Sequence record: MF402939
DNA length: 64,000 nucleotides
From: Escherichia phage OSYSP
Reading direction: 5' to 3' (one strand)
Position 1 is the first letter of the stretch; each line of letters starts with the position of its first letter. This document shows, in pieces, positions 6,126 to 59,662 of this stretch. The position numbers and the translations under genes are program-made. The notes under the pieces are model-generated. The model searched no databases, was not told the origin of the DNA, and saw only the letters and a program-made list of their open reading frames with translations.

Positions 6126-6144
6126 TAATGAGAGATATAAATAA

Positions 6145-7300: not shown

Positions 7301-7318
7301 TGATAAGGAAGAAATTTG

Positions 7319-8095: not shown

Positions 8096-8855
8096 ACTGA
8101 ACTGGAACGTAGAAGGTGTAACCGAGTCTCTGAAAGCAAAAGCCACTGCTCTGGGTGTTGCTGTAATCTCTCAAGAACAAGTAGCTGCTATCGCTGCTGA
8201 ACTGGCTGCTGAAACTGGCAAAGACGTTACCGCTCGCTCTGTTGGCTCTAAGCTGCGTAAAGAAGGTTTCGAAGTACAGAAAGCTAACGAAGTACAGAAA
8301 TCTCCGTGGACTCCTGAGCAGGAAGCTGAACTGGTTGATTTCCTGAACGCTCATGCTGGTCAGTATACCTATGCTGAAATCGCTGCTGCTGTAGCTGGTG
8401 GTCAATTTGGTGCTAGGCAGGTACAGGGTAAGATCCTGAGTCTGGAAATGACCGCTTCTGTTAAACCAACTGAAAAAGCAGCTGCTGTTCGTTCCTTCAC
8501 TCCTGATGAAGAAACTGATTTTGTTAATCAGGTTGTTGCTGGTGCTACTATTGAAGCTATCGCTGCTCACTTCGGTCGTAATATCAAGCAGATCCGTGGT
8601 AAAGCTCTGAGCCTGCTTCGTGAAGGTCGTATCGCTGCTATGCCGGTACAGGAAACTTCAAGTGCTAAAACTCGTGAAGATCTGCTAGAAGGTCTGGATC
8701 TGGTTAACATGACCGTTGCTGAGATCGCTGAGAAAACTGGTAAGTCTGAGCGTGGTGTTAAATCTATGTTGTCTCGTCGTGGTCTGGTTGCTAAGGACTA
8801 TGATGGTGCCGCTAAGCGTGCTAAACTGGATGCAAAAGCTGCGGCTGCTGAATAA
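8088..8855 (+). CDS. Ala-rich protein with internally duplicated helical modules; possible DNA-binding regulator
   Basis: ORF track; repeated AIAA...G(K/R) modules in the translation. Confidence 0.5.
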   Translation: MSKLNWNVEGVTESLKAKATALGVAVISQEQVAAIAAELAAETGKDVTARSVGSKLRKEGFEVQKANEVQKSPWTPEQEAELVDFLNAHAGQYTYAEIAAAVAGGQFGARQVQGKILSLEMTASVKPTEKAAAVRSFTPDEETDFVNQVVAGATIEAIAAHFGRNIKQIRGKALSLLREGRIAAMPVQETSSAKTREDLLEGLDLVNMTVAEIAEKTGKSERGVKSMLSRRGLVAKDYDGAAKRAKLDAKAAAAE

Positions 8856-8871
8856 TCTGGTAAATTAAACC

Positions 8872-8905
8872 TAAGGGGAGGGGGCTATGCTCCTTCCCCT
8901 TTTTG
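8872..8905 (+). terminator. Rho-independent terminator (AAGGGGA ... TCCCCTT + TTTT)
   Basis: Hairpin plus T-run. Confidence 0.7.
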
Positions 8906-8937
8906 CATTTAGAAGGCACGAAAGCGTGCAAAGGAGA

Positions 8938-10410
8938 ATGACCTTGTTTAACGTGCAAGCTGTAGTGTTGAAGATGCTTCTAGCTTCCGAACAGAAGCAA
9001 ATAGCATTGGAAACATTCTCAAAACTGCATAAAGATCATTTTAATGACGCTTTCTCCTCAATTTACCAAGCCGTCCAGAATTATTATAAAAAATATAACA
9101 CAATGCCGTCCATTGACGCACTGATGCTTGAGGCTAATAGGAACGCCCGCCTTTCTCAAGCTCTAGTCGTTTTAGCTAACACTCAAATTCCAGAAGTTAG
9201 CATGGAACAGGCACTTGAAGTCCTAGAGGCCGAGTATACACAGGATTTATTCCTGAAGCTTCTAGAAACAGACGTGCTTCAAGATTTAACAATGCTGGAT
9301 CAGGGAGAAATTCTTAACCGAGTTGCCTCCCTTCACTTAAAATTAGAAGAGAAAGTAACGAATACTGGAAAAGTATTCAACGCAGATAATATGCGTATTT
9401 TCCAGAGAGAAGAAGATACCAAACTGAACTTAATCGCTCTTGGTATTTGTAATGAGTTCGACGCTCAAATTGGTTTAGCTCGCACAGAAACGTTACTGCT
9501 TGGTGGTTGGCGTGGTACTGGTAAATCCATTATCTGTTCAAACATACAGGTTCAGCAATATTTGAATGGGGATATTGCTCCATACTTCTCAATTGAGATG
9601 AAAGAACATGAAGTATTTAGACGTAATCTAGCCATGTTAGCTGGTGTATCAGCACTAGCAATGCGTAATAATACTCTAGAAGGTGCAGCTCTGTTGAGAT
9701 TAGCCAGAACTAGAGCTAGGATGTTTAACGGTGGTGAAGAGCTCTTCGATAACTTCGTTAAACAGTATACAATGGCTAAGATGAGTGATTTCTACGACAT
9801 GGAGAGTAAGCTAATAGAAGGGTATGAGCTACATACTCCTATGATTATTGTTTATGACCCTGAGCTGTCTATTACAACAGTTGACGTAGAATTAAATAAA
9901 TTAGTTGCTAGATATGGGGATAAAGTTACAGTAGCTTTACTGGACTATATTAACCAAACCCGACTTCCAGACTCTAAAACCATTGATATGTATGACTGGA
10001 AAGAACAGATGGTTGTTAGCTCGTCTTTCAAATCTATCTGCCAGAAACATAACGTGGCTGGTGTAGCTCCTTACCAGATTGATCAAGATGGTAGAACACG
10101 TATGTCAAAAGGGATTCTTGATTCCGCAGACATGGCTGCTAATCTTAATGCTGCAAAAGCTGATAATGGTCAAGGTGCTATTATGTTTGACTTCGTTAAG
10201 ACTCGTTCTTCTGATAGCGTGAAGTTTATGCCTAAAATGAACTGGGAAACCCTGCGGATGGATAACACTACCAACCTAGCAATGGAAGATATATCTCAAA
10301 TGGAAGCTGAGTTCGTTATCCCTATTGAGAAGGATAAGCCGGCTCAATCTAAACGTGCTAAGAAAGACAAAGCTGAAAATTCAACAGGTGAACAGGCCAG
10401 CGATATATGA
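8938..10410 (+). CDS. Putative DnaB-like/RecA-fold replicative helicase
   Basis: Walker A GWRGTGKS; AAGGAG Shine-Dalgarno before ATG at 8938; lies directly upstream of primase. Confidence 0.55.
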   Translation: MTLFNVQAVVLKMLLASEQKQIALETFSKLHKDHFNDAFSSIYQAVQNYYKKYNTMPSIDALMLEANRNARLSQALVVLANTQIPEVSMEQALEVLEAEYTQDLFLKLLETDVLQDLTMLDQGEILNRVASLHLKLEEKVTNTGKVFNADNMRIFQREEDTKLNLIALGICNEFDAQIGLARTETLLLGGWRGTGKSIICSNIQVQQYLNGDIAPYFSIEMKEHEVFRRNLAMLAGVSALAMRNNTLEGAALLRLARTRARMFNGGEELFDNFVKQYTMAKMSDFYDMESKLIEGYELHTPMIIVYDPELSITTVDVELNKLVARYGDKVTVALLDYINQTRLPDSKTIDMYDWKEQMVVSSSFKSICQKHNVAGVAPYQIDQDGRTRMSKGILDSADMAANLNAAKADNGQGAIMFDFVKTRSSDSVKFMPKMNWETLRMDNTTNLAMEDISQMEAEFVIPIEKDKPAQSKRAKKDKAENSTGEQASDI

Positions 10411-11297
10411 GTAGAATAACAGAACTACTTGATCTGAAAGGCATTGAATATAAAGACACAGGTGGGGACATCCTCATCTGTTGTCTCAATCCAGATCATG
10501 ACGATAAACACCCAAGTTTGCGTATTGACCCTGAAACAGGTATTATGCACTGCTTGAGTTGTGGCTTCGGTAAAGGTATACCGAGCATTTACCATTATTT
10601 TAATGAGACTCAGTACCGACAGTCCCCAAGGCTATCGCAAGTACGTAAAAAGATTTCAGAGATTAGGAATGGATCAACGAATCTTGCAATTCCTGAATCT
10701 GCTTACCTTTTCGAAGGTGATTTCCGAGGTATAAGTTCTAAGACCTTGAAGAAATATTTTGCTTTCCAACACCAAGCAGACTGGGAAGGCAGAATTGTAT
10801 TCCCAATCACAGATGCTGTTGGACGCAATATCCTATTTTTGGGTCGTTCTATAAACAGTTCTGCCCCTCCTAAATACTTAGTAAAACCAAAACAAGTTTC
10901 ACCGCCAATTTTTCCTGTACGATATAATACTCCAGTCCTTATTCTAGTTGAAGGCATCTTTGATATGCTGAACCTAGAGGATAATGGTATAGACTATGCT
11001 TCTTGCTGCTTTGGTACACATCAGTTTACTTCGGATAACATTGCAGATAAGTTCAGTCCTTATATTATCGCCGGTGTAAAAGTTGTTGTTATCTTACTAG
11101 ATAATGATGCTTCTGGTAATAAAGCTGCCCAGGCTCTAGCAAAATTAATTCGTACAAAAACACGTTTAACACCTGTAGTTGCTAACTTCTTACTTCCAGA
11201 GGGTAAGGATCCTGGTGATTTAAATAAAGAAGAAGTCGATACGTTAGCAAAACGTATTGAAATTTTAGTTGCTGAATCACTTAAAGATTTGGTATAA
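10407..11297 (+). CDS. DNA primase (zinc-ribbon plus TOPRIM)
   Basis: CxxxxH...CxxC zinc motif and TOPRIM-like EGIFD / LLDNDASG motifs. Confidence 0.75.
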   Translation: MSRITELLDLKGIEYKDTGGDILICCLNPDHDDKHPSLRIDPETGIMHCLSCGFGKGIPSIYHYFNETQYRQSPRLSQVRKKISEIRNGSTNLAIPESAYLFEGDFRGISSKTLKKYFAFQHQADWEGRIVFPITDAVGRNILFLGRSINSSAPPKYLVKPKQVSPPIFPVRYNTPVLILVEGIFDMLNLEDNGIDYASCCFGTHQFTSDNIADKFSPYIIAGVKVVVILLDNDASGNKAAQALAKLIRTKTRLTPVVANFLLPEGKDPGDLNKEEVDTLAKRIEILVAESLKDLV

Positions 11298-18053: not shown

Positions 18054-19872
18054 GACACTAAAATTTAGTAACGTTATGTCTTACGGTAAGGACATCGTAA
18101 TTCATTTCGATAAGAATCCAGTTACTCAACTAATCGGTGGCAATGGGCTAGGGAAATCTACTATCGCCACGGTTATAGAAGAGCTGTTCTATAATAAGAA
18201 CTCACGTGGTATTAAGAAAGATGCTCTGTTCTCTTGGTCTTCTCCGAAAAAAGAGTATGATATGCACGCTTACTTCTCAAAAGATGAAGATGAGTATGAA
18301 TTGCATAAAGTAGTTAAATCAACTGCTAAGGTTACACTCATTAAGAATGGAGAAGATATTAGTGGGCATACGGCAACCCAAACATATAAGATGATTGAAG
18401 AAATTATGGGGGGTGACTTTCAAACATTCACCAAACTGATTTATCAATCAGTGGGTTCTAATCTAGACTTCCTAAAAGCAACAGATGCAACACGTAAGGC
18501 TTTTCTTGTTAACTTGTTCAATCAAGAGCAATACAAAGAAATGTCAGAAACTATTAAGGCTGACCGTAAAGAAATAGCAAATACCTTAAATAATTTGCAG
18601 GGCCAGATGGCTGTAATTACGAAAATCCTTAATGGAAAAAATAATCTAGGAACTTTGCAGGAACCTGTAGAGGTGCCGGAGTTTGATGAAGAGCCATTAG
18701 CACAAGAACTTACTGAATCGAAAATTAAGGCGGCATTAGCCAAGTCTCAAGAGGCTAATATTACTAAGTTGCGTAATTTGGACAAAGCTGTACAAGTTGC
18801 CGAACAATCTTTCGAACCTTTCAAAAATTTGCCCGCGCCCACCGACCAAAGTGAAGAGATCTCGAGTGTTACGCGTGACCTAACGATTGTGACCTCACGT
18901 GCGAGCGAAGTTAAGAAACGTTATCAGAAGTTCAAGCAAGAGGCTTCAAATACTGAATGCCCTACTTGCGGTACTCATCTGGATACAACTGCTGCCCAAA
19001 AAGCAATGGATATGGCTAGAACAGAATATGATCCTCTGTTCAAAGAGAAGCAATCTCTTGAAGCTAAGCTAGAACAGTTGAAGAAAGAACAACTTGAGTA
19101 CGTTGCGTATACTAGAGCAAAGGATGCTTTGGATAAAGCGGTGGTAGCTAGAGACGAGTTCAAAAATTCAATGAGTGATGCTTCTTTTGAAGAACTCAAT
19201 GTGCAAATCCTACAGGTGCAAATCCGACAATTAGAACAGGAAATCGCTGATGGCCGCTCTAAGGTTGCAATTGCCAAAGAGCATAATGCAAATGTCGAAT
19301 TAGCCAACGCAAAATATAAAGCGAAACTAGAACAGATTGAGAAAGCTGAAGCAGAAATGTCTGAGATTACTTCCAAACTTGATGGAGTAGCCGAAGCTGT
19401 AGCTGATCTTGATATTCTAATTGCTGCTTTGAAAAATCTGGTGGGATATAAACTAGAGCATAGTGTGAAAGTATTCGAAGAATTAATTAATAAATACCTT
19501 TCTATTATGACTGGAGGTAAATTCGCACTTGGATTTGAACTTGATGAAACGAAGTTACAAGTAGTAATCTTCAATGATGGAAATCGTACCAGTATGGAGA
19601 ACTGCTCTACTGGTCAGCAAAGTAGAATTAATCTAGCAACCCTGTTAGCTATTCGTATGCTGTTAACATCTATTAGTAAAGTTAATATTAATCTTCTATT
19701 CCTTGATGAAGTAATTAGCTTTATTGATACGAAAGGACTTGATACTCTCGTTGAACTATTAAATGAGGAAGAAAGTCTAAATTCTATCATTGTTTCTCAT
19801 GGGCATACGCATCCATTAGCTCATAAGATTACTGTCAAAAAAGATGCAGAAGGATTTTCCTACTTAGAATAA
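18034..19872 (+). CDS. SbcC/Rad50-like ATPase
   Basis: Walker A GGNGLGKST, coiled-coil middle with CPTCG zinc hook, C-terminal ABC signature/D-loop (LLFLDEV). Confidence 0.85.
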   Translation: MSKITIKTLKFSNVMSYGKDIVIHFDKNPVTQLIGGNGLGKSTIATVIEELFYNKNSRGIKKDALFSWSSPKKEYDMHAYFSKDEDEYELHKVVKSTAKVTLIKNGEDISGHTATQTYKMIEEIMGGDFQTFTKLIYQSVGSNLDFLKATDATRKAFLVNLFNQEQYKEMSETIKADRKEIANTLNNLQGQMAVITKILNGKNNLGTLQEPVEVPEFDEEPLAQELTESKIKAALAKSQEANITKLRNLDKAVQVAEQSFEPFKNLPAPTDQSEEISSVTRDLTIVTSRASEVKKRYQKFKQEASNTECPTCGTHLDTTAAQKAMDMARTEYDPLFKEKQSLEAKLEQLKKEQLEYVAYTRAKDALDKAVVARDEFKNSMSDASFEELNVQILQVQIRQLEQEIADGRSKVAIAKEHNANVELANAKYKAKLEQIEKAEAEMSEITSKLDGVAEAVADLDILIAALKNLVGYKLEHSVKVFEELINKYLSIMTGGKFALGFELDETKLQVVIFNDGNRTSMENCSTGQQSRINLATLLAIRMLLTSISKVNINLLFLDEVISFIDTKGLDTLVELLNEEESLNSIIVSHGHTHPLAHKITVKKDAEGFSYLE

Positions 19873-50462: not shown

Positions 50463-52127
50463 TTACGCGAAAAATTTACCGTTTTTAAAGTCGATCAAAG
50501 TGCGCTGACCGTTTGCATAGGTAATAACATGCGTTTGCGTCCAGCTTGACGCGCCAACGTTGTAACCCATGTCCAGACTACCAGCTACGCCAGCGGTATA
50601 TACCCCGCCGTAAATGCTTGCCGTATGAGTATGCCCCGTGTTTAATTTGCCCAATTTCTTAAACTGTTTAGGATTGCCACGGCTGCCGTTAATGCCATTG
50701 TGACCGTGTACGCCGCACTCGATGCCTGCAATTTTAAATGATTGGTCAGTTGTTAGGAAAATGGCGTTAAATTCACAACCTGCAACCTTACGCAGCGCAT
50801 AATCAAGCACGTTGAAAGTATCGTCATGATCACCGATTGCCGCGTAAATTGCAGCATTTAGGCGGTGATATAGTTCCGCGTTTGCGGGATCGTCTTTAAT
50901 GTTAGCATTACGATCATCAAGCCAACGGGATAGCGCTAAATCGTGGTTTGATTCCACGATGATTGTTTGAGAAAAATCGCGCTCCATTGACTCCAGCACG
51001 CGCCCCGTATCGATGAGATCATCCAGAACCTTATCACGTCCGGCGGCGTATTGTTTTGCTAGGAATACACCCGAAGCGCGGTTGTGATGGTTGCGGGATG
51101 TAAAATCATGCACGTCATGAATAAACTGATATTTAGGCTTGAGAATATCAAGCAAGCTATTTTCGCCAGCCCATGACGCAACGGCGCAATCGTCATCTAA
51201 TTTTTCGGCGTGAATATCGCCATATTGCAAGCCTAAAACATGCCCCGATGTTTCATAACATCCGGCGGGAGTGGCGCAAATATTCAAATCGTAAAACACG
51301 CCGCTTTCGTCCATCGTTTCAAGCTGGCGAACAAAAAATTCTCCGTCTTCGTCAAACTCAACAACAAGCGCACCGAAATTATGCAGCGCCTCGGCCTTTT
51401 GTCCTGCTTTCTGCTGGATGTAATTTTTTAGGGTTGCCGTTCCAGTTGAATACATACGACGCACTACTTCACCTTTTAAAGCTGGCACGCTTTCGGCGGT
51501 AATTTTAGCGTGACCAATTGCCAGACCTTCCAGATTAAGCGCCGTTGCAGTTTCAGCGAATCCAGAAAGCGGATAATCTGCGGTTGGCAAAACGTTAATT
51601 TCAGCCATGAAAGCAAAACGGCGGTTATTTAAAAACACGTTTTTATTGCAGATATATTTGTCAAATGCGGAATCATATTTTATTCCTTCTGCACCCTCGC
51701 CATTTTGAAAACCGTTTTTGTTATAAATAAACTTGCTAACCAGCAAATCAGCGCCGATATATTTAGCAAATTGCTCCAGTGAGGCTAAAAAGTTTTTATG
51801 CGGGAAAGTATTATTCTGAATCGACGTAATAATAAAGCGTTTACCCTGCTTTACTTCCCATTGCTCAACCGTGCTAGAAACAATCCCCGCCGCTTCTGGA
51901 CGCTCATCGTTTTTAATGGCTTTTGCTACTTTCGCCGCTTTCGGTTTAGCTGGTTTATTTGCTTCCAACCAGTCGCAGATAGCGGTCGAGTGTTTTGTTG
52001 TATCGTAGACCGCTTTTGATATATCGTCGCAGACCTCCAGTTTAGTAGCGCGCAGACGTTTACCATAGAAATTAAAGTCAGCGGCCATTTTCAGGATAAC
52101 GGTTTGTTTTTCTGCGGAAATAATCAT
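50463..52127 (-). CDS. A1: A1-like pre-early protein with metallophosphoesterase domain (554 aa)
   Basis: Phosphoesterase motifs (GDIH, SNHD, GHNG, GHTH) in the C-terminal half; size close to T5 A1; adjacent to the A2-like and dmp-like genes. Confidence 0.65.
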   Translation of the reverse strand: MIISAEKQTVILKMAADFNFYGKRLRATKLEVCDDISKAVYDTTKHSTAICDWLEANKPAKPKAAKVAKAIKNDERPEAAGIVSSTVEQWEVKQGKRFIITSIQNNTFPHKNFLASLEQFAKYIGADLLVSKFIYNKNGFQNGEGAEGIKYDSAFDKYICNKNVFLNNRRFAFMAEINVLPTADYPLSGFAETATALNLEGLAIGHAKITAESVPALKGEVVRRMYSTGTATLKNYIQQKAGQKAEALHNFGALVVEFDEDGEFFVRQLETMDESGVFYDLNICATPAGCYETSGHVLGLQYGDIHAEKLDDDCAVASWAGENSLLDILKPKYQFIHDVHDFTSRNHHNRASGVFLAKQYAAGRDKVLDDLIDTGRVLESMERDFSQTIIVESNHDLALSRWLDDRNANIKDDPANAELYHRLNAAIYAAIGDHDDTFNVLDYALRKVAGCEFNAIFLTTDQSFKIAGIECGVHGHNGINGSRGNPKQFKKLGKLNTGHTHTASIYGGVYTAGVAGSLDMGYNVGASSWTQTHVITYANGQRTLIDFKNGKFFA

Positions 52128-52477: not shown

Positions 52478-52885
52478 TTATTCGCCTGCGGCTTGTTTTA
52501 CTTCATCGGCAACGCCTAACAGTTGCGCCACGGCGTCCAGTGTTTCAAGTTTTGCACTTTCCAGACTTGCCAGATCATCGGCGTCTTTGATAATGCCGGA
52601 ATCAATAGCATGTTTAGCGATAACGCGTACATAGTGAGCTTTGCGGATTGAGCTACCGCCGCCAACTTTGCGCGGCTTATCGCTTTTCTGATACGCTTTC
52701 GCGCTGGTCAATTTTGACCGAACGGATACGGGAGAAGCCGCGCCCACTGCTTTTGCAATCTCTTTTAAACCGTAGCTATTTGCGAAATCTAAACCGTTTT
52801 CATTGATTAACTGCTGATACATGGAAACGGCTTTTTGGGTGTTTTCTTCATTCCAAGCAAATTTTGCGGTTTTAACGTTAGTCAT
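52478..52885 (-). CDS. A2: A2-like pre-early DNA-binding protein (135 aa)
   Basis: Size and position next to the A1-like gene; basic segment. Confidence 0.5.
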   Translation of the reverse strand: MTNVKTAKFAWNEENTQKAVSMYQQLINENGLDFANSYGLKEIAKAVGAASPVSVRSKLTSAKAYQKSDKPRKVGGGSSIRKAHYVRVIAKHAIDSGIIKDADDLASLESAKLETLDAVAQLLGVADEVKQAAGE

Positions 52886-52983
52886 GGTAAAAACTCCTAT
52901 TAGTTTAATTTAAGGGATAAGATTAACATAGTGTTAATCATTATATTCCCCATATTTCAGAGGAATATAAAGTTAACACTAAA

Positions 52984-53235
52984 TTATAACACAGCTTCCC
53001 ATTTTTCGTTACGCTGTACAACCTTTACAACGTCGCCGGATTTAACGCGAACGCTAAAAACGGTTTTGCCGTTGTTACTACGTTCATTTTCAGCGTATAC
53101 CGCGTCGATTGTATCAAACGGCATAAGCGCCGCACCTTTAATACGTTCGGCTTTTCCGGTTAGTTCATCCGTTTTAGTAACGAAAGGAATAAAAACGGAT
53201 TGACCAATTTTAGGCGCGGTAATAACGTTTTTCAT
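52984..53235 (-). CDS. Hypothetical pre-early protein (83 aa)
   Basis: ORF track. Confidence 0.45.
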   Translation of the reverse strand: MKNVITAPKIGQSVFIPFVTKTDELTGKAERIKGAALMPFDTIDAVYAENERSNNGKTVFSVRVKSGDVVKVVQRNEKWEAVL

Positions 53236-53462
53236 AATATAAACTCCTAGTTATTTGGGGATTGTTCCGCATTACCTGCTAGAAAGTAGCAGGTAATAAG
53301 CAACAATCCGCTCACCGCTATAATCAATTTAAAGAACTCCATGCAGGCCGCTATATCCCAGTTAGGGGGCGGGACACATTATGGTAAGTGCCGACCGTCA
53401 GATTTTATCAAGTTATCGCTCTTATCGAACTGAGTACATCTTAAAGCCTATCGGCTAGGTTG

Positions 53463-53666
53463 TCAAACAATTTTTTGCAGTTTTTTATAATTCTCTTTCA
53501 AGTCAATCATAATATTTCGCCAGATCATTTCTAAACCTTGCTGGCGGCCTTTCTTGTACTGCGTGAATCGGTATTTTACCGATCTTTGCGCTACTGTCAA
53601 CAAATTTTTTGTTTTGCTGTCCAGTGCCTTGCTAGGTTTACCAGTGATCAATAAAGTTTGTTTCAT
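53463..53666 (-). CDS. Small basic protein (67 aa), possibly DNA-binding
   Basis: ORF track; Lys/Arg-rich. Confidence 0.4.
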   Translation of the reverse strand: MKQTLLITGKPSKALDSKTKNLLTVAQRSVKYRFTQYKKGRQQGLEMIWRNIMIDLKENYKKLQKIV

Positions 53667-54091
53667 ATCTGCGATTCCTTATAATGTATAAGTTTACCGC
53701 CGATAGACTTTAAGATGTACCCAATTTTTAAAGAGCGCGGCGGTAAACTTCCCGCCGTGTAGTTCGTCATTGCCGCCCTACGAGATAAATAATAAGGGAT
53801 TCACAAAAATGGCGCAACCTTATTTTTGTAAAGAAACGTAAAGACAAATGCCACCGGACACCGTGCGGCGACCTGGGCGCGACGCACTAAAATTAAAAGA
53901 AACGGGCGCGCGAATACCACAAAACATAGCAGATAGGCAAGTAATTTTTTCATTTATATTTGCTTTGCCCTACTTGACAAAATCTAAAAAACTCGTGGTA
54001 GCGATAAACGAGGGTAGGCAATGCAATGGCATGGCTAAAAACTTCATCGCGTTCTAGGGCGTTTTAGGCGCATTCTAGCCTTGTTGATAAC

Positions 54092-54534
54092 TTATCCCCA
54101 GAAGCAAAAATGAAATTTTCCTAGTTATCCACTTGACTTTTATTTTCCAGTGGATAACTACTTATTTTATAAAATAAATTAATTGACTTTTATTTGTTAG
54201 TATGCGTCGGAAAGATAGCAGACTAATAATTGCTAGGATGATAATCATGCTGGTGGATTGTAACGGCTTAAATTATTAGCAGACTATTAATCACGGAAAA
54301 TCTCATTAGCCAACTAACTATTTCATGATATATAATATACTTATAAATTAAGGAGAAATAATAATTATAAGAAATAATAGCTACAGTAAATATTAACTAT
54401 AAGAAACTATCGGCCTAAGTGAGAACCACTATCATTTAAGTTATCCACAACGTTATCCACAGCACAAAATGATTTGACATAATAGGCGGTGATATAAGGA
54501 CTTTTACACAGACTTATCCACAGCTTATCCTACT
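54092..54534. promoter_or_regulatory. DnaA-box cluster in the divergent intergenic region (perfect TTATCCACA at 54441, 54453, 54514; variants at 54092, 54125, 54150 inverted, 54526)
   Basis: Direct match to the 9-mer DnaA box consensus. Confidence 0.7.
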
Positions 54535-54549
54535 GTATAAATATACAAG
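54508..54549 (+). repeat. Left arm of a 42-bp inverted repeat (ACAGACTTATCCACAG..TATCCTACTGTATAAATATACA), with DnaA box and -10-like TATAAAT
   Basis: Reverse complement of 58209-58250, identical except 2 central bases (hand-aligned). Confidence 0.8.
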
Positions 54550-54815
54550 GTAAAAAGGTAGTGTTAACAACTGCAATCAATTTTAAGCGGCCTAAAACGC
54601 TTTCTAACGAGCTAAATGCGGTGGGGTAATATTAAAGTAAAGTCTTCACCCGTCGCCCTGGTGGCTTCACTGTGTTTTGCTCTTTATTGCACCGCTGCGC
54701 GGTTAGCATAAAACTAGGCGCTAGGCAAGGAAAATAAAAAGGTAAAATAATATTTGCCCCTAGAAAGAAAATACCTTTATCATTCACTCACCGATTAACG
54801 AGGGAGGCCGAACAA

Positions 54816-55808
54816 ATGAGGCTTTATAAACCAGATAACGCAACCGTCTTAAAAGGTGCATTGCGCAACCTGCTGGATGGTAGCAGAACAACCAGCATTA
54901 AACATTTTGTTTTCAATATTGAAACACTTCATCGTAATTTTCTTGATGATTACGATGCTTATAATATGAATAGTTTTCTACCGTTATATAATCAAGGGGC
55001 AACGCTTGTTTTATATAATCAGGAATCTCACTTGCTTACTAGTCGAGGGCCAGATACTGATTTTATTATAGTGAAAGGCAGTACAGTAAAAGCCTATGAT
55101 GCGGGGGCGGGCTTAGAAGTTTTCACGATAGAAAATTATGAGCCTTATGATAAGGATCTTTATGACGTAGAAAATTTTCTCGATTCATTTTGGCGTTATT
55201 TATCAATTGGGTGGAATCGATCAGATTATCACGGGTATCGTTTTGCGGCTATAATGGCTTTTGATGATAACGGTAATTTTTTGCTACCGTCGGAATTATA
55301 CCCGTATGTATATAATGATTTAATAGAGGAGGCTGGTTTTACTTTCTGGAAAGATGAAGATCAGCCTATTGACAACACGGAAAAACATGCTGTAAATTCT
55401 AACACTCAAAGCGTTAACACTCAAACTACTGAAAATAAAGGGAAAAATACTATGACCAAGATCGCTAACATCGTTGCCGCTAATAAATCCGCTGTTGTAA
55501 ACGCTGCAAAACTGGAAGCGGGTAAAATTGCACTGACTCAAATCACGAAAGTAGCGGCTAAAAAACCGCCGTTTATTATCAAGGGTTATATTGATACGCC
55601 GATTGGTCGGGTAGTGATTGCCAACCTGCTGAGTGTAGCGGTTGACCAGTACGCCCCGAGTAACCAGAAAGCGAAAGCGGTAGCAGGAGCGGCTATGGAA
55701 GCGGCAATGCTAGAAATGGTGCAAAGTTTTAACATCGCTGAAATGATCGATGAAATGGTAAAAGGTATCGATATTTCTACTTTCACCGTTAACAACGAAA
55801 GCGAGTAA
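54816..55808 (+). CDS. Hypothetical pre-early protein (330 aa)
   Basis: ORF track; GGAGG Shine-Dalgarno upstream. Confidence 0.6.
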   Translation: MRLYKPDNATVLKGALRNLLDGSRTTSIKHFVFNIETLHRNFLDDYDAYNMNSFLPLYNQGATLVLYNQESHLLTSRGPDTDFIIVKGSTVKAYDAGAGLEVFTIENYEPYDKDLYDVENFLDSFWRYLSIGWNRSDYHGYRFAAIMAFDDNGNFLLPSELYPYVYNDLIEEAGFTFWKDEDQPIDNTEKHAVNSNTQSVNTQTTENKGKNTMTKIANIVAANKSAVVNAAKLEAGKIALTQITKVAAKKPPFIIKGYIDTPIGRVVIANLLSVAVDQYAPSNQKAKAVAGAAMEAAMLEMVQSFNIAEMIDEMVKGIDISTFTVNNESE

Positions 55809-55872
55809 TAATATTAAGCGGGGATTGTTACCCCGCTTTAATGTTCCCTTGTTAATTAATAGGAGGCTAATT

Positions 55873-56367
55873 ATGTCAGAAGAAAAATATGGCTTCTCAC
55901 TGGGAGAAGTGAGCACGGCTAAACACGATATGATCATTTTGGTCGATTGTCATACTGGCTATTGCGGAGAAGGCTGGACGGAGGAACATTTTGTTCCAGC
56001 TGGCTGTAATCTGGACGCTTTCGCTCAGGAAATGGCTGTTGATAATGCTTCTCGTTTCGGTAGCGATGGCTATGAAGACGAGGAAACTGGCGAATGGTAT
56101 GAAAATGAAAACGTATACGCTAGTCTTTATCATTATCAATTAAGTAAATCCGGCGCATATGTAAACGGCGGCGATCCTATTAATTCCATCATGAGATTAA
56201 TTATTAAACATGGTGGCGTCGAGATAATTGATAACAAAGCGGTAATATACGCAAACCGATTAAAACAGCTTGTTTATATTCCTGATAATACCCGATGGGA
56301 TGAATATGCTGTTTTGCATGACGAATTGAAACGATGTTTCAATATTGAATCCTTACAAGTAGTCTAA
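55873..56367 (+). CDS. Hypothetical acidic protein (about 164 aa, start at MSEEKYG)
   Basis: AGGAGG Shine-Dalgarno 6 nt before ATG at 55873. Confidence 0.55.
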   Translation: MSEEKYGFSLGEVSTAKHDMIILVDCHTGYCGEGWTEEHFVPAGCNLDAFAQEMAVDNASRFGSDGYEDEETGEWYENENVYASLYHYQLSKSGAYVNGGDPINSIMRLIIKHGGVEIIDNKAVIYANRLKQLVYIPDNTRWDEYAVLHDELKRCFNIESLQVV

Positions 56368-56472
56368 TGTAAAGTTTTGTAAAGGTCGCCTTTTATGGTG
56401 GCCTTTTTTGTTATAATGCTTTTACACCAAAACGGTGGATTGAAAATTTTCCCAAAAATTTGGAGGCTTAAA

Positions 56473-56703
56473 ATGGTTGCATACTCTTCTGCTAGTCATC
56501 TGTTTACCGCGCAAGGCTGGGTATCTAATCGCGTCATCATTCATGAAATGGTGCAGGAGTTCGGCATTGCTAAAACTTACACTACCATTCAGGAACTATA
56601 CAACGCCGATAAAATCGATCAGCAAACGGCTGGCTTTTTGCTGGATACCCTGAAGGCGGAACATTGCACCAAAAAACAAGCCGCTAAAATTGTTTTAATG
56701 TAA
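56473..56703 (+). CDS. Hypothetical protein (about 76 aa, start at MVAYSS)
   Basis: GGAGG Shine-Dalgarno before ATG at 56473. Confidence 0.5.
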   Translation: MVAYSSASHLFTAQGWVSNRVIIHEMVQEFGIAKTYTTIQELYNADKIDQQTAGFLLDTLKAEHCTKKQAAKIVLM

Positions 56704-56749
56704 TTAATAACGGGGCGTTATTTTCGCCCCGCTAACTAGGAGAATGAAA

Positions 56750-56899
56750 ATGGTTATTTTTCGAGCTATTCTGGCAGGTATCTTGGGCGCTATTTTATCG
56801 TTGTTTGCAATAGCTTTCGGTGTTCACGCCGTTATTGTCGGCGCGGGTATCGCCGTTTTTTCTTATCTGCTGGGCTGCATGATTAGTAAAGGAGAATAA
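56750..56899 (+). CDS. Unannotated hydrophobic micro-protein (49 aa, MVIFRAILAGILGAILSLFAIAFGVHAVIVGAGIAVFSYLLGCMISKGE)
   Basis: Hand translation; AGGAG Shine-Dalgarno; stop lies 2 nt before the next ATG. Confidence 0.5.
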   Translation: MVIFRAILAGILGAILSLFAIAFGVHAVIVGAGIAVFSYLLGCMISKGE

Positions 56900-56901
56900 A
56901 A

Positions 56902-57114
56902 ATGATCCGCAACGTTTCTCTTGCTCGTTCGAAAGGCTTTAAGCTGGTGGACGTTAACACGTTCGAGCGTGAAGATTGTAAAATCGAATATGTAGCGCGG
57001 AATAAAAACGCCTTTCGTGTTACCGAGAAAAAATTCGATAAGCGCGGCAACGTGGTCGCTGAAACGGTTAAACATTTTGCCACCTTTTACGCTGCGTTTC
57101 GTGGGGTACTATGA
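56902..57114 (+). CDS. Hypothetical basic protein (70 aa)
   Basis: ORF track. Confidence 0.5.
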   Translation: MIRNVSLARSKGFKLVDVNTFEREDCKIEYVARNKNAFRVTEKKFDKRGNVVAETVKHFATFYAAFRGVL

Positions 57115-57236
57115 AAAGCGTTATCATTATTAGCCTTGCAATGGTTGGCGGTTTTACCGCCACCTTATTTAAAAATGATCCCCTTTTACTGGGGATTTTT
57201 ATGCTTTTATCTGGCTATCTGATTGGGAGGTTATAA
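57111..57236 (+). CDS. Unannotated hydrophobic micro-protein (41 aa, MKSVIIISLAMVGGFTATLFKNDPLLLGIFMLLSGYLIGRL)
   Basis: Hand translation; ATGA start/stop overlap with the upstream gene. Confidence 0.5.
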   Translation: MKSVIIISLAMVGGFTATLFKNDPLLLGIFMLLSGYLIGRL

Positions 57237-57237
57237 A

Positions 57238-57582
57238 ATGGTAATTTATGAAGGCAATCGTTTTGTTGCTAATTGCCGTCCTGCATTGCTAGCAAATTAC
57301 TTAAATCAGCTTTCACCAGCTTATAAGGGCGTTATTAATATTTATGAGGGCAAAGTGCATTATAAGGTTAATGCGGTCGTTGCCCGTGAACTAGCGTTTC
57401 AATTTTTGACCTTTGCATCTTGTGACGTTCAGGTTATGGGTGAGGCGTTAATTGCAGAAAATGAAGATGATTTTATTAACATTTTTCGCAAGATATGCAC
57501 CGAGCGCCTGATCATGAAAGGCGCTTATATTCAATCCACTGCGGATAGTATTGAAACAGCGTTTCGAAAGGTGGCGCAATGA
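57238..57582 (+). CDS. Hypothetical protein (about 114 aa, start at MVIYEG)
   Basis: GGGAGG Shine-Dalgarno before ATG at 57238. Confidence 0.5.
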   Translation: MVIYEGNRFVANCRPALLANYLNQLSPAYKGVINIYEGKVHYKVNAVVARELAFQFLTFASCDVQVMGEALIAENEDDFINIFRKICTERLIMKGAYIQSTADSIETAFRKVAQ

Positions 57583-57737
57583 AAAAGTTTTTAATAGCTG
57601 GCATGTTTCCGTTGTTGCCTTATGTAATTTGCTGGGCTTTATATGCTCATGGTGCTAGTGTTCCCGGTGTGGCTTCATTTGGTGTATCGGCGGGCTTTCT
57701 AGCTGGACTATTGGCAAGCGTATATTTACGCAAATAA
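57579..57737 (+). CDS. Unannotated hydrophobic micro-protein (52 aa, MKKFLIAGMFPLLPYVICWALYAHGASVPGVASFGVSAGFLAGLLASVYLRK)
   Basis: Hand translation; ATGA overlap with the upstream gene. Confidence 0.5.
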   Translation: MKKFLIAGMFPLLPYVICWALYAHGASVPGVASFGVSAGFLAGLLASVYLRK

Positions 57738-57756
57738 TTAATAACGGAGCGTTATT

Positions 57757-57951
57757 ATGAGCAATAAAATTGTTGTAACCAAAATCAGTACAATGGTTGA
57801 TGTTTTTTACGTGCCCGATACGCCGGAGAATCGGCGAGCGGTCGAGCGTGGCGAGTATGATAAAGTGATTTATGATCACGATGGTTACTATCAACATTTG
57901 GTGGATTCCTACGGGGAGGAGGAAAAAATCACGCATCGACTACCAGACTAA
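57757..57951 (+). CDS. Small acidic protein (64 aa)
   Basis: ORF track. Confidence 0.5.
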   Translation: MSNKIVVTKISTMVDVFYVPDTPENRRAVERGEYDKVIYDHDGYYQHLVDSYGEEEKITHRLPD

Positions 57952-57992
57952 TAATCACGGGGCGCAACTACCAGGGAGTGCCCCCAATTCTC

Positions 57993-58087
57993 AAATGAGA
58001 ATCATTCTCATTTGACTGCGCCCGCGATGGTTAGCCTGCTAATGATTAGGGTGTTACGTGTCGCCTTGTGTGATCGTTAGCAGGCTA
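57993..58087. repeat. Palindromic elements: AAATGAGAATCATTCTCATTT and a 12-bp inverted pair TTAGCCTGCTAA / TTAGCAGGCTAA
   Basis: Read from the sequence; related motifs occur at 48812-48853. Confidence 0.7.
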
Positions 58088-58208
58088 ACTAATTTTTAAG
58101 CCTCCTCCAATTTTGCCCTTGTTTTAGTACCCCCACCAAAATTAAACGCGTTAGAATGCGATCTAGGACGTTTTAGCGGTATACTAGAATTATTCACTAC
58201 ATAGGAAT

Positions 58209-58250
58209 ACTGTATATTTATACAGTAGGATATCCTGTGGATAAGTCTGT
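58209..58250 (-). repeat. Right arm of the 42-bp inverted repeat (reverse orientation), includes DnaA box TGTGGATAA at 58236; a second box at 58309
   Basis: Hand-computed reverse complement matches 54508-54549. Confidence 0.8.
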
Positions 58251-58334
58251 TAATAACGCCTCAAAATGGCTAGGATTCTGTCAAATCAAATCGTGCTGTT
58301 AATAAGTCTGTGGATAACTTAAATAACAGTGTTT

Positions 58335-58510
58335 CTCACTTCCATTCTTAAATGAGAATCATTATCATTCGCAGTCCACTGTCTAACCGATAATCATTTC
58401 CTTTCTTAAATGAGAATCATTTCACTTTTTGAATAGTTCTCATTTCCTTTCTTAAATGAGAATAATTATCATTCGCATTCCACTTCTTAAATGATAATGA
58501 TTCTCATTCA
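58335..58510. repeat. Cluster of at least 4 copies of TTCTTAAATGAGAAT(C/A)ATT in direct and inverted orientation
   Basis: Read from the sequence. Confidence 0.75.
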
Positions 58511-58515
58511 AAGTC

Positions 58516-58533
58516 GCAGGGCAATTGCCCTGC
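58516..58533. repeat. Perfect 18-bp palindrome GCAGGGCAATTGCCCTGC
   Basis: Self-complementary by inspection. Confidence 0.85.
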
Positions 58534-58538
58534 GCTTT

Positions 58539-59141
58539 TGTGCAAATCCGACATTGCTCCACGGGTGTTACGTGCGGGCATGTATGTGCGAATCCGACAA
58601 TTTTTGGTAGTGTGCGAATCCGACCCTAAAAACTTTTGTGATGTGCGAATCCAACAATGAATTTTCCCAAAAACTCCAGCAATCACGAACTGCGTTCGAA
58701 TCCTGTGGGATATGTGCAAATCCGACACGGTTTTTCTAGGATTAAGATGTGCAAATCCGACAAGATTTTTGTGACTTCGATGAGAGGGTGTGTGATTGTA
58801 TAGGTTTGAGGAGAAGATGAGAGAGCGAGAAAAGTTTGGGAGGCTAGAAGGATGCGGGCGCAGGATTGGTGCGGAGCACCTGATTTGCGGGGATTTTGGG
58901 GAAGAGTTGAGATAATTTGGGAAGATTTGAGATAGGTGCAGAAAAAGTAAAATTTTATTAGCAAAATGGGGCAAAATAGCTTGACAAGTGAAAATTTCTG
59001 TGGCTCTAAAAACTCAGGCAATCATGGGCCTTCGGCCCGAAATAATGCTGCCATTTTCAAGAGATTATATGTTCCTAAAAACTTAGGCGTTTGTGCAAAT
59101 CCGACCATAAATTTCTAGGAACACAATGTACAAATCCGACA
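58539..59141 (+). repeat. Iteron-like array: 8 same-orientation copies of 15-bp TGTGC(G/A)AATCCGAC(A/C) at 58539, 58585, 58611, 58642, 58713, 58748, 59092, 59127
   Basis: Direct repeats located by hand; copy 4 carries CCAACA and copy 8 TGTACA variants. Confidence 0.8.
58790..58945. repeat. Purine-rich (G/A) strand-asymmetric tract with short GAGATA / TTGGG repeats
   Basis: Read from the sequence. Confidence 0.6.
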
Positions 59142-59169
59142 GTAATTTCTGGAAATGTGTTTTCAAAAA

Positions 59170-59240
59170 ATGTCTCCTAGAAATAACCGCCCTCCCTATA
59201 ACCGCCCTGTATTAACCGCCCTGTATTAACCGCCTATTGC
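59170..59240. repeat. Short tandem repeats (A/T)TAACCGCC(CT), 4 copies, flanked by TTCTAGGAA / TTCCTAGAA inverted motifs
   Basis: Read from the sequence. Confidence 0.65.
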
Positions 59241-59662
59241 TAGAGTTTCTAGGAATATGAAAACCGCCTGAGTTGACTAGAGAAACAGATTTAAAGTTTA
59301 ATGTAAACTCTAGAGTTAGTGCTCAACTATTCCTAGAAACTTAGGAGTCTAGAAGAAAGTGTTGTGCCATCCTAGCAGATGAGCGGCAACAGGTGTATCA
59401 TCTTGAACACAAATATTGCCTTTAAATATTTTTAGTTATTTAAAAGTAAATATACCCCCATTTCATGAGAGCTTACTCGTGGGGCGCGTGAGTATTACGG
59501 AAGACTTAGTAATTAGATCTATACTCGTGCTGTCGCAACGTATAGACGTAATACTAAGTGTAATAATCATCGCCCCTAGAGTTCAAAACAAGAGTTGTTT
59601 TTAATCTATGAGATTATTATAACATGTGCCGCAATGAGTTGTCAAGAAGATTTTGTTAATGT

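What the first reader, a model, noticed from the sequence alone, without database searches (positions are those of the whole stretch)
54092..54534. DnaA-box cluster in the divergent pre-early intergenic region
At least three perfect TTATCCACA boxes within about 85 bp (54441, 54453, 54514), plus an 11-bp inverted pair AGTTATCCAC / GTGGATAACT (54124-54160) and near-boxes at 54092 and 54526. Two more perfect boxes lie at 58236 and 58309. This density suggests host DnaA is recruited or titrated, possibly to control pre-early transcription, injection arrest or replication initiation.
Basis: partly seen in the sequence, partly recalled or inferred. Interest (0 to 1): 0.6.

Follow-up and report, generated by a model that had tools for sequence, protein, structure and literature searches.

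The report
Known T5 DnaA-box repeat, plus LexA-like site
The DnaA-box cluster is real and strongly conserved, but it is the already published "IRC-spacer-IRD" repeat of T5-like phages, proposed but never tested as part of the signal that pauses DNA injection; the part I could not find reported is a LexA-type palindrome attached to each copy.

Summary
The window is a T5-like phage and 49-59.4 kb is its terminal-repeat (first-step-transfer) region. All 5 perfect TTATCCACA sites in 64 kb lie in 54441-58317, against 0.6 expected.

The boxes belong to two 131-bp inverted repeats, 54417-54547 and 58211-58341. These are homologous to T5 IRC-spacer-IRD and IRD'-spacer-IRC'. Davison (bioRxiv 2020) described eight DnaA boxes there, in pairs spaced by 3 bp, and proposed that membrane-bound DnaA causes the injection stop. 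A 2023 paper says this is still untested. The finding is therefore already known.

What I add:
- Variation across about 57 orthologous copies follows DnaA specificity: position 3 is A/T only, position 5 is free, and the other positions are near-invariant. The exception is a class with A at position 6.
- Boxes persist in relatives as distant as Vibrio phages (A1 31-34% identical).
- Each repeat ends in a palindrome matching the LexA SOS-box consensus (19/20 at 58208-58227). It is conserved family-wide and absent from the T5 literature I could search.

DnaA binding is a strong inference. The function is untested: injection pause is favoured over promoter control or a replication origin.

The parts
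54417..54547 (+). Left copy of the 131-bp inverted repeat (T5 'IRC-spacer-IRD'); this is the core of the finding
   Evidence: It is an inverted repeat of 58211-58341 (I1/I2). It is 81.7% identical to T5 6098-6227. 539 phage records hold it, and none of the hits listed carries an annotation for it.
54418..54440 (+). Conserved end motif AGTGAGAACCACTATCATTTAAG (contains AGTG-N5-CACT)
   Evidence: It is conserved in both copies of all T5-like loci. A recognisable version (TGAGAAACACTATC) is present in Klebsiella and Proteus phages.
54441..54461 (+). Box pair 1-2: TTATCCACA-acg-TTATCCACA (3-bp spacer)
   Evidence: Among the 57 unique sequences (28 left, 29 right), box 1 is the perfect consensus in 21 of 28 left copies and 23 of 29 right copies.
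54474..54479 (+). Invariant TTGACA in the spacer; no usable -10 element follows it at 16-18 nt
   Evidence: It is conserved in both copies and in the Klebsiella and Erwinia phages. The promoter scan finds no partner hexamer.
54502..54522 (+). Box pair 3-4: TTTTACACA-gac-TTATCCACA, 61 bp from pair 1-2
   Evidence: (D6).
54525..54533 (+). Fifth, degenerate box TTATCCTAC, 2 bp after box 4 and overlapping the palindrome
   Evidence: TTATCCTAC in 22 of 28 left copies and 18 of 29 right copies.
54531..54550 (.). LexA-type palindrome, left copy: TACTGTATAAATATACAAGG. In this phage the right half-site is CAA; most relatives have CAG.
58208..58227 (.). LexA-type palindrome, right copy: TACTGTATATTTATACAGTA, 19 of 20 matches to TACTG(TA)5CAGTA
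   Evidence: The consensus is quoted from PMC6015884. These are the only two matches within 3 mismatches in 64 kb.
58211..58341 (-). Right copy of the inverted repeat (T5 IRD'-spacer-IRC'), inside the annotated injection-stop region. Boxes on the minus strand: 58236 TTATCCACA, 58248 TTATTAACA, 58297 TTATTAACA, 58309 TTATCCACA. The degenerate fifth box is at 58225-58233.
   Evidence: It is 91.6% identical to T5 9412-9542, which lies within the T5 misc_feature 'injection stop signal' 9140-10149.
54082..54100 (.). Back-to-back near-boxes TGTTGATAA-c-TTATCCCCA (part of 'cluster 1')
   Evidence: They are present in window-type relatives and, as TGTTAATAA-C-TTATACAAA, in the more distant loci L035, L037, L038 and L040. 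T5-type phages have unrelated sequence here.
54123..54159 (.). Convergent inverted pair AGTTATCCACT-15 nt-AGTGGATAACT
   Evidence: The full-length window-type allele occurs in about 120 phage records.
54754..54783 (+). Promoter of the rightward pre-early operon (gene 011 homologue starts at 54816): TTGCCC-18-TATCAT
   Evidence: It is homologous to the T5 annotated promoter at 6411-6489. That promoter is described as experimentally characterised in 10.64898/2026.04.02.716235.
53573..53600 (-). Leftward pre-early promoter (T5 P-H22 homologue): TTGACA-16-TAAAAT
   Evidence: The T5 feature is at 4799-4873, and the coordinate offset of 48764 comes.

Best explanation
What it is (shown). The finding is the left member of a pair of 131-bp inverted repeats that all T5-like phages carry in the DNA that enters the cell first.

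Each copy is an ordered module:
- a conserved end motif;
- two co-oriented DnaA-type 9-mers 3 bp apart;
- a 40-bp spacer with an invariant TTGACA;
- two more 9-mers 3 bp apart;
- a degenerate fifth 9-mer;
- a LexA-type palindrome.

The two copies face each other across the rightward pre-early operon, with the palindromes proximal to it. The right copy lies in the injection-stop region.

How it works (inferred). Host DnaA, which is present before any phage protein is made, binds the perfect outer boxes at high affinity and fills the weaker inner boxes cooperatively. LexA probably occupies the palindrome.

Function (inferred, least certain). This host-protein/DNA complex forms on the last stretch of first-step DNA to enter. 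The right copy ends roughly 150-200 bp before the projected shear point, which falls at about 58.5 kb in this window. The complex helps hold or mark the DNA at the pause in transfer, possibly by tethering it to membrane-associated DnaA or by bridging the two copies. [quoted passage not shown]

It is a structural cis-element, not a promoter operator and not a replication origin.
For: Identity with the published element.

Enrichment: 5 perfect boxes against 0.6 expected, and 4 consensus boxes in 131 bp against at most 2 in 300 simulations. In SP15, 6 of 7 perfect boxes lie in the two elements.

Selection on the boxes themselves:
- Orthologous copies are about 80-97% identical, while the two copies within one genome are only 74-82% identical.
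- The columns shared between the two copies are the boxes, the TTGACA, the palindrome and the end motif.

The substitution pattern fits DnaA (226 boxes pooled over about 57 orthologous copies):
- positions 1, 2, 4, 8 and 9 are at least 96% invariant;
- position 3 is only A or T;
- position 5 takes all four bases.
This is the TT(A/T)TNCACA consensus.

Outer boxes are mostly perfect and inner boxes weaker.

Deep conservation: perfect TTATCCACA sites are found in the pre-early region of the Klebsiella, Erwinia, Proteus and three Vibrio phages examined (A1 72% down to 31% identical). Where the fetched DNA covers both flanks they form two clusters bracketing the operon divergent from A2. In all but Vibrio phage Achelous a CTGTAT-N4-ATACAG-type palindrome lies nearby. 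A non-T5-like phage with an A1 homologue has neither feature.

No phage mimic: no pre-early protein has a DnaA- or LexA-like DNA-binding domain in Pfam.

Position: the right copy lies inside the T5 'injection stop signal' feature, just left of the 7.9% nick.

Precedent: DnaA and LexA share one regulatory region in E. coli at uvrB/DARS1.
Against: - No binding or functional experiment exists, and I can run none.
- 27% of boxes have A instead of C at position 6 (TTATYAACA). This is outside the stringent DnaA consensus and dominates the inner boxes of the right copy.
- A protein complex forming inside the cell does not obviously stop DNA from continuing to enter.
- The left copy sits 3.8 kb before the pause, and that distance varies from 1.8 to about 4.2 kb among relatives. 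Its role in a pause is therefore unclear.
- In this phage the left palindrome has lost one CAG half-site.
- From my own recollection, not checked here: T5 is reported to grow independently of most host replication functions. If so, any DnaA role would have to be non-essential, or independent of DnaA's initiator function.
Confidence: 0.45

Rival explanations
1. Transcriptional control or insulation. DnaA and LexA bound at the two modules repress or road-block RNA polymerase. This would limit read-through out of the rightward pre-early operon, or shut off weak outward promoters that overlap the palindromes.
For: - The array lies between the divergent pre-early promoters.
- A leftward promoter-like site, TTAACA-16-TATATT (54567..54540), has its -10 element inside the palindrome, as in classical SOS operators.
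- The right copy follows the operon's terminator in T5.
- Both modules present the same face to polymerase leaving the operon.
- DnaA and LexA co-regulate uvrB.
Against: - The array is more than 200 bp upstream of the gene-011 promoter and more than 800 bp from P-H22.
- In the right copy the equivalent -35 element is poor: TTATTC, read from the sequence.
- SOS boxes are inherently -10-like, so the promoter match is weak evidence.
- T5 tolerates a 0.8-kb homing-endonuclease gene inserted beside the left copy.
Confidence: 0.2
2. The 9-mers and the palindrome are sites for phage proteins, for example the DNA-binding dimer A2 with A1, both of which are needed to restart transfer. Their resemblance to host consensus sites would then be incidental, or competitive mimicry.
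For: - A1 and A2 co-occur with the modules in every Demerecviridae lineage examined.
- A2 is annotated as a DNA-binding protein.
- The frequent A at position 6, outside the DnaA consensus, could reflect a different reader.
- Restart of transfer logically needs something that acts at the stop region.
Against: - Two unrelated motifs both match host consensus sequences almost perfectly: 9 of 9 for most outer boxes and 19 of 20 for the SOS box. They keep doing so in phages whose A1 is only 31-34% identical.
- Positions 3 and 5 vary exactly as DnaA tolerates.
- Host DnaA and LexA would bind such sites whatever else does.
- No HTH, DnaA or LexA domain was detected in A2 or the other pre-early proteins.
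Confidence: 0.15
3. DnaA-dependent replication element or modulator of DnaA activity: an accessory origin of the iteron-plasmid type, or a DARS/datA-like site that changes the DnaA nucleotide state.
For: - Co-oriented arrays with strong outer and weak inner boxes.
- A 26% G+C tract directly left of the left copy, at 54160-54416.
- Iteron-like GTGCAAATCCGAC repeats to the right of the right copy.
- The 3-bp tandem spacing equals that of DARS1 boxes II-III.
- The cluster-1 arms equal DARS1 box I.
Against: - No GATC at all in 54000-54600.
- The DARS core geometry is not met: the gap is 15 nt rather than 5, and there is no box III.
- T5 origins were mapped near mid-genome, and the replication genes arrive only with the second step (Davison).
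- The host chromosome is destroyed within minutes, so manipulating host initiation has no obvious value.
Confidence: 0.07
4. Relic ends of a mobile cassette or recombination sites: two 131-bp terminal inverted repeats, each with multiple short repeats, flanking a variable gene cassette.
For: - The inverted repeats bracket an operon whose length varies between about 1.8 and about 4.2 kb (start-to-start spacing of the two copies) among relatives.
- Davison also notes variable gene content there.
- Multi-site ends resemble transposon ends (my own recollection).
Against: - No transposase or recombinase in the cassette.
- The two copies within a genome are only 74-82% identical, while orthologues are about 80-97% identical. 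They have therefore been kept in place separately for a long time.
- The same orientation was found in all loci.
- No copy in E. coli genomes.
Confidence: 0.04

Closest known systems
T5 IRC-spacer-IRD / IRD'-spacer-IRC' DnaA-box arrays (Davison, bioRxiv 2020, 10.1101/866236; the first boxes were seen in the iss region in 1987, as cited there)
   Same: Homologous sequence at the same map positions (81.7% and 91.6% identity to T5 6098-6227 and 9412-9542). Two 131-bp inverted copies. Eight boxes in four pairs with 3-bp spacers. The right copy lies in the injection-stop region.
   Different: - All four left-copy boxes here are of consensus class; T5 has lost one.
- There is no hegG insertion.
- This phage carries an extra upstream set of near-boxes (54082-54159) that T5 lacks.
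- The paper does not mention the LexA consensus match of the terminal palindrome, which it treats only as a palindrome and possible cleavage site.
E. coli DARS1 / uvrB promoter region
   Same: - A perfect box followed 3 bp later by a weaker co-oriented box (DARS1 boxes II-III).
- A convergent pair whose left arm is the identical AGTTATCCACT.
- LexA boxes and DnaA boxes share one regulatory region, and the two proteins compete there.
   Different: - DARS needs oppositely oriented boxes I-II 5 bp apart plus box III. Here the convergent pair is 15 nt apart with no box III.
- The main arrays are entirely co-oriented.
- No sequence homology to E. coli.
- ADP-release activity is untested.
DnaA-oligomerisation arrays of oriC and DnaA-box clusters of iteron plasmid origins
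   Same: Co-oriented high-affinity boxes flank lower-affinity ones. An A+T-rich tract and iteron-like repeats lie nearby.
   Different: - Spacing is 3 bp; my recollection, not tested here, is that oriC arrays use 2 bp.
- No GATC cluster and no identified unwinding element.
- No evidence of initiation here; T5 origins were mapped elsewhere.
Gammaproteobacterial SOS (LexA) operators
   Same: CTG-N10-CAG with an A/T core. The match to TACTG(TA)5CAGTA is 19 of 20. In distant relatives the arms CTGTAT/ATACAG are kept while the central 4 bp vary.
   Different: It is not positioned over a mapped promoter. It occurs in a strictly lytic phage. Binding is untested. The left copy in this window has CAA in place of CAG.

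Membership tests
T5-type IRC-spacer-IRD / IRD'-spacer-IRC' repeat pair | Two ~131-bp copies in inverted orientation, one in the divergent intergenic region and one in the injection-stop region of the terminal repeat | tested here: met
   54417-54547 and 58211-58341, 82-86% complementary. They are homologous to T5 6098-6227 and 9412-9542. The T5 iss feature spans 9140-10149.
T5-type IRC-spacer-IRD / IRD'-spacer-IRC' repeat pair | Eight DnaA or DnaA* boxes arranged as four pairs separated by 3 bp | tested here: met
   Pairs at 54441/54453, 54502/54514, 58236/58248 and 58297/58309. Each has a 3-bp spacer, and pairs are 61 bp apart in both copies.
DnaA box (Schaper-Messer TT(A/T)TNCACA) | 9-mer match to the consensus | tested here: met
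   Four of four boxes match in the left copy and two of four in the right copy; the other two are TTATTAACA. The consensus is as quoted.
DnaA box (Schaper-Messer TT(A/T)TNCACA) | Cross-species variation confined to the positions DnaA tolerates (3 = A/T, 5 = N) | tested here: inconclusive
   Positions 3 and 5 behave as predicted, and positions 1, 2, 4, 8 and 9 are at least 96% invariant. Position 6, however, is A in 27% of 226 boxes.
DnaA box (Schaper-Messer TT(A/T)TNCACA) | Binding by DnaA protein | not testable with these tools
   Needs EMSA, footprinting or ChIP. The literature states that no such experiments exist for T5-like phages.
DARS core (DnaA-reactivating sequence) | Boxes I and II oppositely oriented with a 5-bp gap, plus box III co-oriented with II | tested here: not met
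   The definition is from PMC6868365, and the DARS1 sequence was read. The window pair at 54125-54157 is convergent but 15 nt apart, and no box follows 3 bp after it. The main arrays have no opposed box.
DnaA-dependent replication origin (oriC or iteron-plasmid type) | DnaA-box array adjoining an A+T-rich unwinding element, with GATC clustering (enterobacterial type) | tested here: not met
   An A+T-rich tract is present (26% G+C, 54160-54416), but there is no GATC in 54000-54600. No 13-mer-type repeat was looked for beyond this. The mapped T5 origins are mid-genome.
LexA (SOS) operator | CTG-N10-CAG palindrome with an A/T-rich core close to TACTG(TA)5CAGTA | tested here: met
   The right copy at 58208-58227 matches 19 of 20. 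The left copy at 54531-54550 has CAA in this phage but CAG in most relatives.
LexA (SOS) operator | Overlap with a promoter that LexA represses; LexA binding | not testable with these tools
   There are only consensus-scan promoter-like matches. No transcription-start or binding data were available.
Known structured RNA family | Match to an Rfam covariance model at gathering score | tested here: not met
   In 52900-59600 there is only a chance miRNA-model hit on the hairpin at 54109-54173, scoring 27 bits against a cut-off of 90.

The most novel reading that the evidence does not exclude
Each repeat is a bipartite landing pad for two host regulators: a cooperative DnaA array capped by a near-consensus LexA operator. 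It is conserved from T5 to Vibrio Demerecviridae. The pause in DNA transfer, or the pre-early programme, would then be set by the host's DnaA and LexA (SOS) status. That would make a strictly lytic phage's genome delivery sensitive to host replication and DNA-damage state. I found no mention of LexA in connection with the T5 first-step region in the searchable literature.
Probability: 0.25. Interest if true: 0.7.

Novelty: already known. Interest (0 to 1): 0.35.

Why it matters
How T5 stops after injecting 8% of its genome and then restarts has been an open question since the 1960s. The only concrete cis-plus-host-factor proposal rests on these boxes, and it is still untested.

The analysis here does not make the boxes new, but it sharpens the test:
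- It shows that the box positions, not just the region, are under selection across the whole family.
- It shows that a LexA-type operator travels with them.
- It shows that the upstream inverted pair is dispensable.

This defines which bases to mutate and which host mutants (dnaA, lexA) to try. T5-like phages are also common biocontrol and therapy candidates, and their host-dependence at the entry step matters for that use.

Tried and rejected
- I first labelled the promoter-like site at 54307-54336 as T5 P_H207, from memory. The remembered P_H207 fragments are absent from the T5 terminal repeat, so the label is dropped. The site is still conserved in T5 (6051-6080) and unannotated.
- I thought the inverted pair at 54123-54159 was one version of a universally conserved hairpin with compensatory arms. 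There are three arm versions, but T5 itself folds no better than shuffled sequence (z = 0.16 and 1.49). This is only a lineage-restricted feature.
- Host origin of the repeat: no match in 5,426 E. coli genomes.
- Known RNA family: none.
- A phage-encoded DnaA- or LexA-like protein: none detectable in 10 pre-early ORFs.
- A covariation test using A1-bearing phages of Alphaproteobacteria, which have a different LexA motif, proved inapplicable. Rhizobium phage RHph_I40 is an Autographiviridae phage with A1 in its replication module, and it has no A2 or divergent operon.
- A spacer promoter using the conserved TTGACA: no -10 element at a workable distance in either copy.
- Davison's 2015 review could not be obtained. 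Heusterspreute 1987 is known to me only through Davison's citation, and its text and that of Wang 2005 were not looked up. I cannot exclude that one of these three mentions the SOS-box match.

Full report
**Context.** The region around the finding matches 450 T5-like phage records. The best match is Escherichia phage SP15 at 93.8% identity, at SP15 coordinates 4939-6238. Alignment to T5 (AY543070) maps window ~48.9-59.4 kb onto T5 ~105-10608; the left terminal repeat (first-step-transfer, FST, region) is T5 1-10219. The leftward genes are A1 (50463-52127) and A2 (52478-52885). The rightward operon starts with the gene-011 homologue at 54816. By homology and consensus scan, the leftward promoter P-H22 is at 53600..53573 and the gene-011 promoter is at 54754-54783. 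A 2026 preprint lists these, together with P-D/E20, as the experimentally characterised pre-early promoters. The finding therefore does lie in the divergent pre-early intergenic region.

**The observation.** It holds.
The expectation is 0.60, and no shuffle out of 100 reached five.
- With the stringent consensus TT(A/T)TNCACA, four sites fall in one 131-bp stretch. In 300 Markov-1 simulations no such stretch held more than two.
- In SP15, six of the seven perfect boxes in the first 50 kb lie in the same two elements.
- One-mismatch sites across the window are not enriched. The signal is local.

- The partner of the 54514 box is TTTTACACA at 54502, 3 bp upstream.
- The near-box quoted at 54526 is TTATCCTAC at 54525-54533. 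It has three mismatches and overlaps a palindrome.
- The inverted pair has 11-bp arms at 54123-54133 and 54149-54159.

**What it is.** Repeat analysis shows that 54417-54547 is an inverted repeat of 58211-58341. These correspond to T5 6098-6227 and 9412-9542. The second lies within the T5 feature 'injection stop signal'.

This is the pair that Davison (bioRxiv 2020) named IRC-spacer-IRD and IRD'-spacer-IRC'. He compared 25 T5-like phages and reported eight DnaA or DnaA* boxes, always in pairs separated by 3 bp. He noted that the first boxes had been seen in 1987. He proposed that membrane-bound DnaA binding to them stops injection until A1 and A2 cut the DNA free.

The window shows exactly that layout. 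The pairs are 54441/54453, 54502/54514, 58236/58248 and 58297/58309, with pairs 61 bp apart in both copies. Later papers repeat the idea. [quoted passage not shown] The finding is therefore a rediscovery of a published feature, and its 'injection arrest' reading is the published hypothesis.

**Evidence that the boxes themselves are under selection.** I fetched 39 related loci through A2 and aligned 28 distinct left copies and 29 distinct right copies.
- Orthologous copies are about 80-97% identical to the window's copies (down to about 71% in the most divergent loci, L038-L040).
- The two copies within one genome are only 74-82% identical.
- The copies have therefore evolved separately for a long time, without concerted evolution.
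- The columns that remain shared between them are the five 9-mers, an invariant TTGACA in the spacer, a terminal palindrome and an end motif AGTGAGAA(A/C)CACT..ATTTAAG.

Pooling 226 boxes gives this pattern:
- positions 1, 2, 4, 8 and 9 are at least 96% invariant;
- position 3 is only A or T;
- position 5 takes all four bases.

That is the DnaA consensus. The exception is position 6, which is A in 27% of boxes (TTATYAACA). This class is concentrated in the inner boxes of the right copy. The outer boxes (1 and 4) are mostly perfect. A strong box with a weaker neighbour is how cooperative DnaA sites are built in E. coli. This last step is an inference from general knowledge of DnaA.

**Depth of conservation.** Using A1 as a probe I read the equivalent regions of six more distant phages:
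- Klebsiella phage Roth37 (A1 72% identical);
- Erwinia phage KEY (66%);
- Proteus phage 1 (42%);
- Vibrio phages D254 (34%), Achelous (31%) and AG74 (31%).

All six have perfect TTATCCACA boxes in the pre-early region. Where the fetched DNA covers both flanks, they form two clusters bracketing the operon divergent from A2. The arrangement of the boxes differs in the Vibrio phages, but the motif does not.

A Shewanella phage that has an A1 homologue but is not T5-like has neither perfect boxes nor the palindrome. In the phage collection, 539 records hold the left repeat, usually at two or four places. The hits listed carry no annotation for it, only terminal-repeat or hypothetical-protein features at most.

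Each repeat ends, on the side facing the operon, in CTGTATAAATATACAG or its complement.
- The right copy reads TACTGTATATTTATACAGTA at 58208-58227. That is 19 of 20 matches to the E. coli SOS-box consensus TACTG(TA)5CAGTA.
- The left copy in this phage has CAA in place of CAG; most relatives have CAG.
- These are the only two matches within three mismatches in the window.
- The palindrome is present next to the boxes in the Klebsiella, Erwinia, Proteus, Vibrio D254 and Vibrio AG74 phages.
- In D254 the arms CTGTAT/ATACAG are kept while the central four bases differ. That is how LexA operators vary.

Davison's paper treats the palindromes as possible cleavage sites and never mentions LexA or SOS. 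Two literature searches found no paper linking T5 and LexA sites. I could not read Davison's 2015 review, and I did not look up the 1987 and 2005 sequence papers. The novelty of this detail is therefore provisional.

**The upstream cluster at 54082-54159 is a separate, dispensable feature.** Among relatives this stretch is dimorphic.
- The window-type allele has back-to-back near-boxes and the convergent TTATCCACT pair. It occurs in about 120 records.
- T5-type phages have unrelated sequence with a different short inverted repeat.
- T5 itself folds no better than shuffled sequence there.
- More distant lineages keep parts of the window-type version, so it may be the older form.
- T5 also carries a homing-endonuclease gene inserted between this stretch and the left repeat. 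Their spacing is therefore not constrained.

**Comparison with host DnaA elements.** I read E. coli DARS1 from MG1655. It is TTATCCACT, 5 nt, TGTGGATAA, 3 nt, TGTGTATTA, matching the published description of boxes I-III.
- The 3-bp tandem spacing of the phage pairs equals that of DARS boxes II-III.
- The left arm of the window's convergent pair is identical to DARS1 box I with its flank.
- The pair is 15 nt apart rather than 5 and lacks a box III, so it fails the DARS core definition.
- The same E. coli region (the uvrB promoters) interleaves LexA and DnaA boxes, and the two proteins compete there. That is a precedent for a joint site.
- An origin-like reading is weakened by the absence of any GATC in 54000-54600, despite a 26% G+C tract at 54160-54416. 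It is also weakened by the mid-genome mapping of T5 origins cited by Davison.

**Other checks.**
- No pre-early protein shows a DnaA- or LexA-like domain.
- No Rfam family matches.
- E. coli genomes hold no copy of the repeat.

**Mechanism.**
- Shown: the architecture, its enrichment, its conservation and its match to two host consensus sites.
- Strongly inferred: DnaA, and probably LexA, will occupy these sites as soon as the DNA enters. Both proteins pre-exist in the cell, and the sites equal their best natural targets.
- Weakly inferred: what that achieves.

I favour a structural role in the transfer pause for three reasons:
- The right copy ends roughly 150-200 bp before the shear point, projected from T5 to about 58.5 kb.
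- The pause needs no phage protein synthesis.
- Neither copy sits on a mapped promoter.

The weak points are these:
- A cytoplasmic complex does not obviously stop entry.
- The left copy is kilobases away, at a variable distance.
- The class of boxes with A at position 6 is outside the DnaA consensus.

The rivals are transcriptional road-block or insulation, phage A2/A1 as the true reader, an accessory origin or DnaA modulator, and relic cassette ends. They are ranked in the report sections, each with the experiment that would separate it.

**Verdict.** The feature is already known. The residual interest lies in the LexA-type operator and in the family-wide conservation, which together make a 60-year-old question more sharply testable.

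Noticed in passing
window 58208-58227 and 54531-54550; also L041, L042, L043, L044, L047: A LexA/SOS-box-type palindrome (19 of 20 matches to the consensus in the right copy) caps each DnaA-box array on the side facing the operon. It is conserved out to Vibrio phages. It is not mentioned as a LexA site in Davison 2020 or in any searchable paper.
   Followed up: partly
alignment of 54533-54548 / 58210-58225 across loci L002-L040: The two central bases of the palindrome flip between AA and TT among close relatives, in both copies: 34 AA against 11 TT among the intact forms. No AT or TA intermediate was seen. This looks like inversion of a palindrome centre rather than stepwise point mutation.
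   Followed up: no
window 54076-54165: This stretch is dimorphic among T5-like phages. The window-type allele, rich in DnaA-like boxes, is in about 120 records. T5-type phages have an unrelated allele with a different inverted repeat. Distant lineages keep parts of the window type.
   Followed up: yes
window 58540-59105; L001 9753-10478; L041, L042, L047; window 19201-19228: The iteron-like repeat GTGCAAATCCGAC (T5 'DRD') straddles the projected right boundary of the terminal repeat. It is conserved in the Klebsiella and Erwinia phages and in Vibrio phage AG74 (A1 31% identical). Two tandem copies also lie inside a 646-aa ORF at 19.2 kb. It may be a site for a conserved phage protein, such as the terminase or an origin-binding protein.
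   Followed up: partly
window 54418-54440 and 58318-58340: The end motif AGTGAGAA(A/C)CACT..ATTTAAG, which contains AGTG-N5-CACT, is as conserved as the boxes. It is recognisable in the Klebsiella and Proteus phages. No candidate binding protein is known.
   Followed up: no
window 54307-54336 (+); T5 AY543070 6051-6080: A sigma-70-like site, TAGCCA-18-TATAAT, is conserved in T5 but not annotated there. It would fire rightward through the left DnaA-box array.
   Followed up: partly
window 54043-54069 and 54590-54616: A further inverted repeat, 27 nt and 74% complementary (probably T5 IRB/IRB'), encloses the upstream cluster, the A+T-rich tract and the left 131-bp repeat.
   Followed up: no
window 3843-3880 (+): Exact matches to fragments I remember from the classic T5 promoter P_N25 (TTGCTTTCAGGAAAA ... 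TATAATAGATTCAT). The P_N25 homologue therefore appears to lie here, far from the pre-early region.
   Followed up: no
window 54187-54275 versus T5 5411-5929: T5 carries the homing-endonuclease gene hegG inserted at this point. The window phage and most relatives lack it. This shows that the intergenic region tolerates a 0.8-kb insertion beside the left repeat.
   Followed up: partly
window 54816-55808 (+): The first gene of the bracketed operon (the T5 gene 011 homologue, 330 aa) matches only DUF7566. A 2026 preprint reports that the T5 gene could not be cloned in its wild-type form, which hints at toxicity or at a strong cis element.
   Followed up: no
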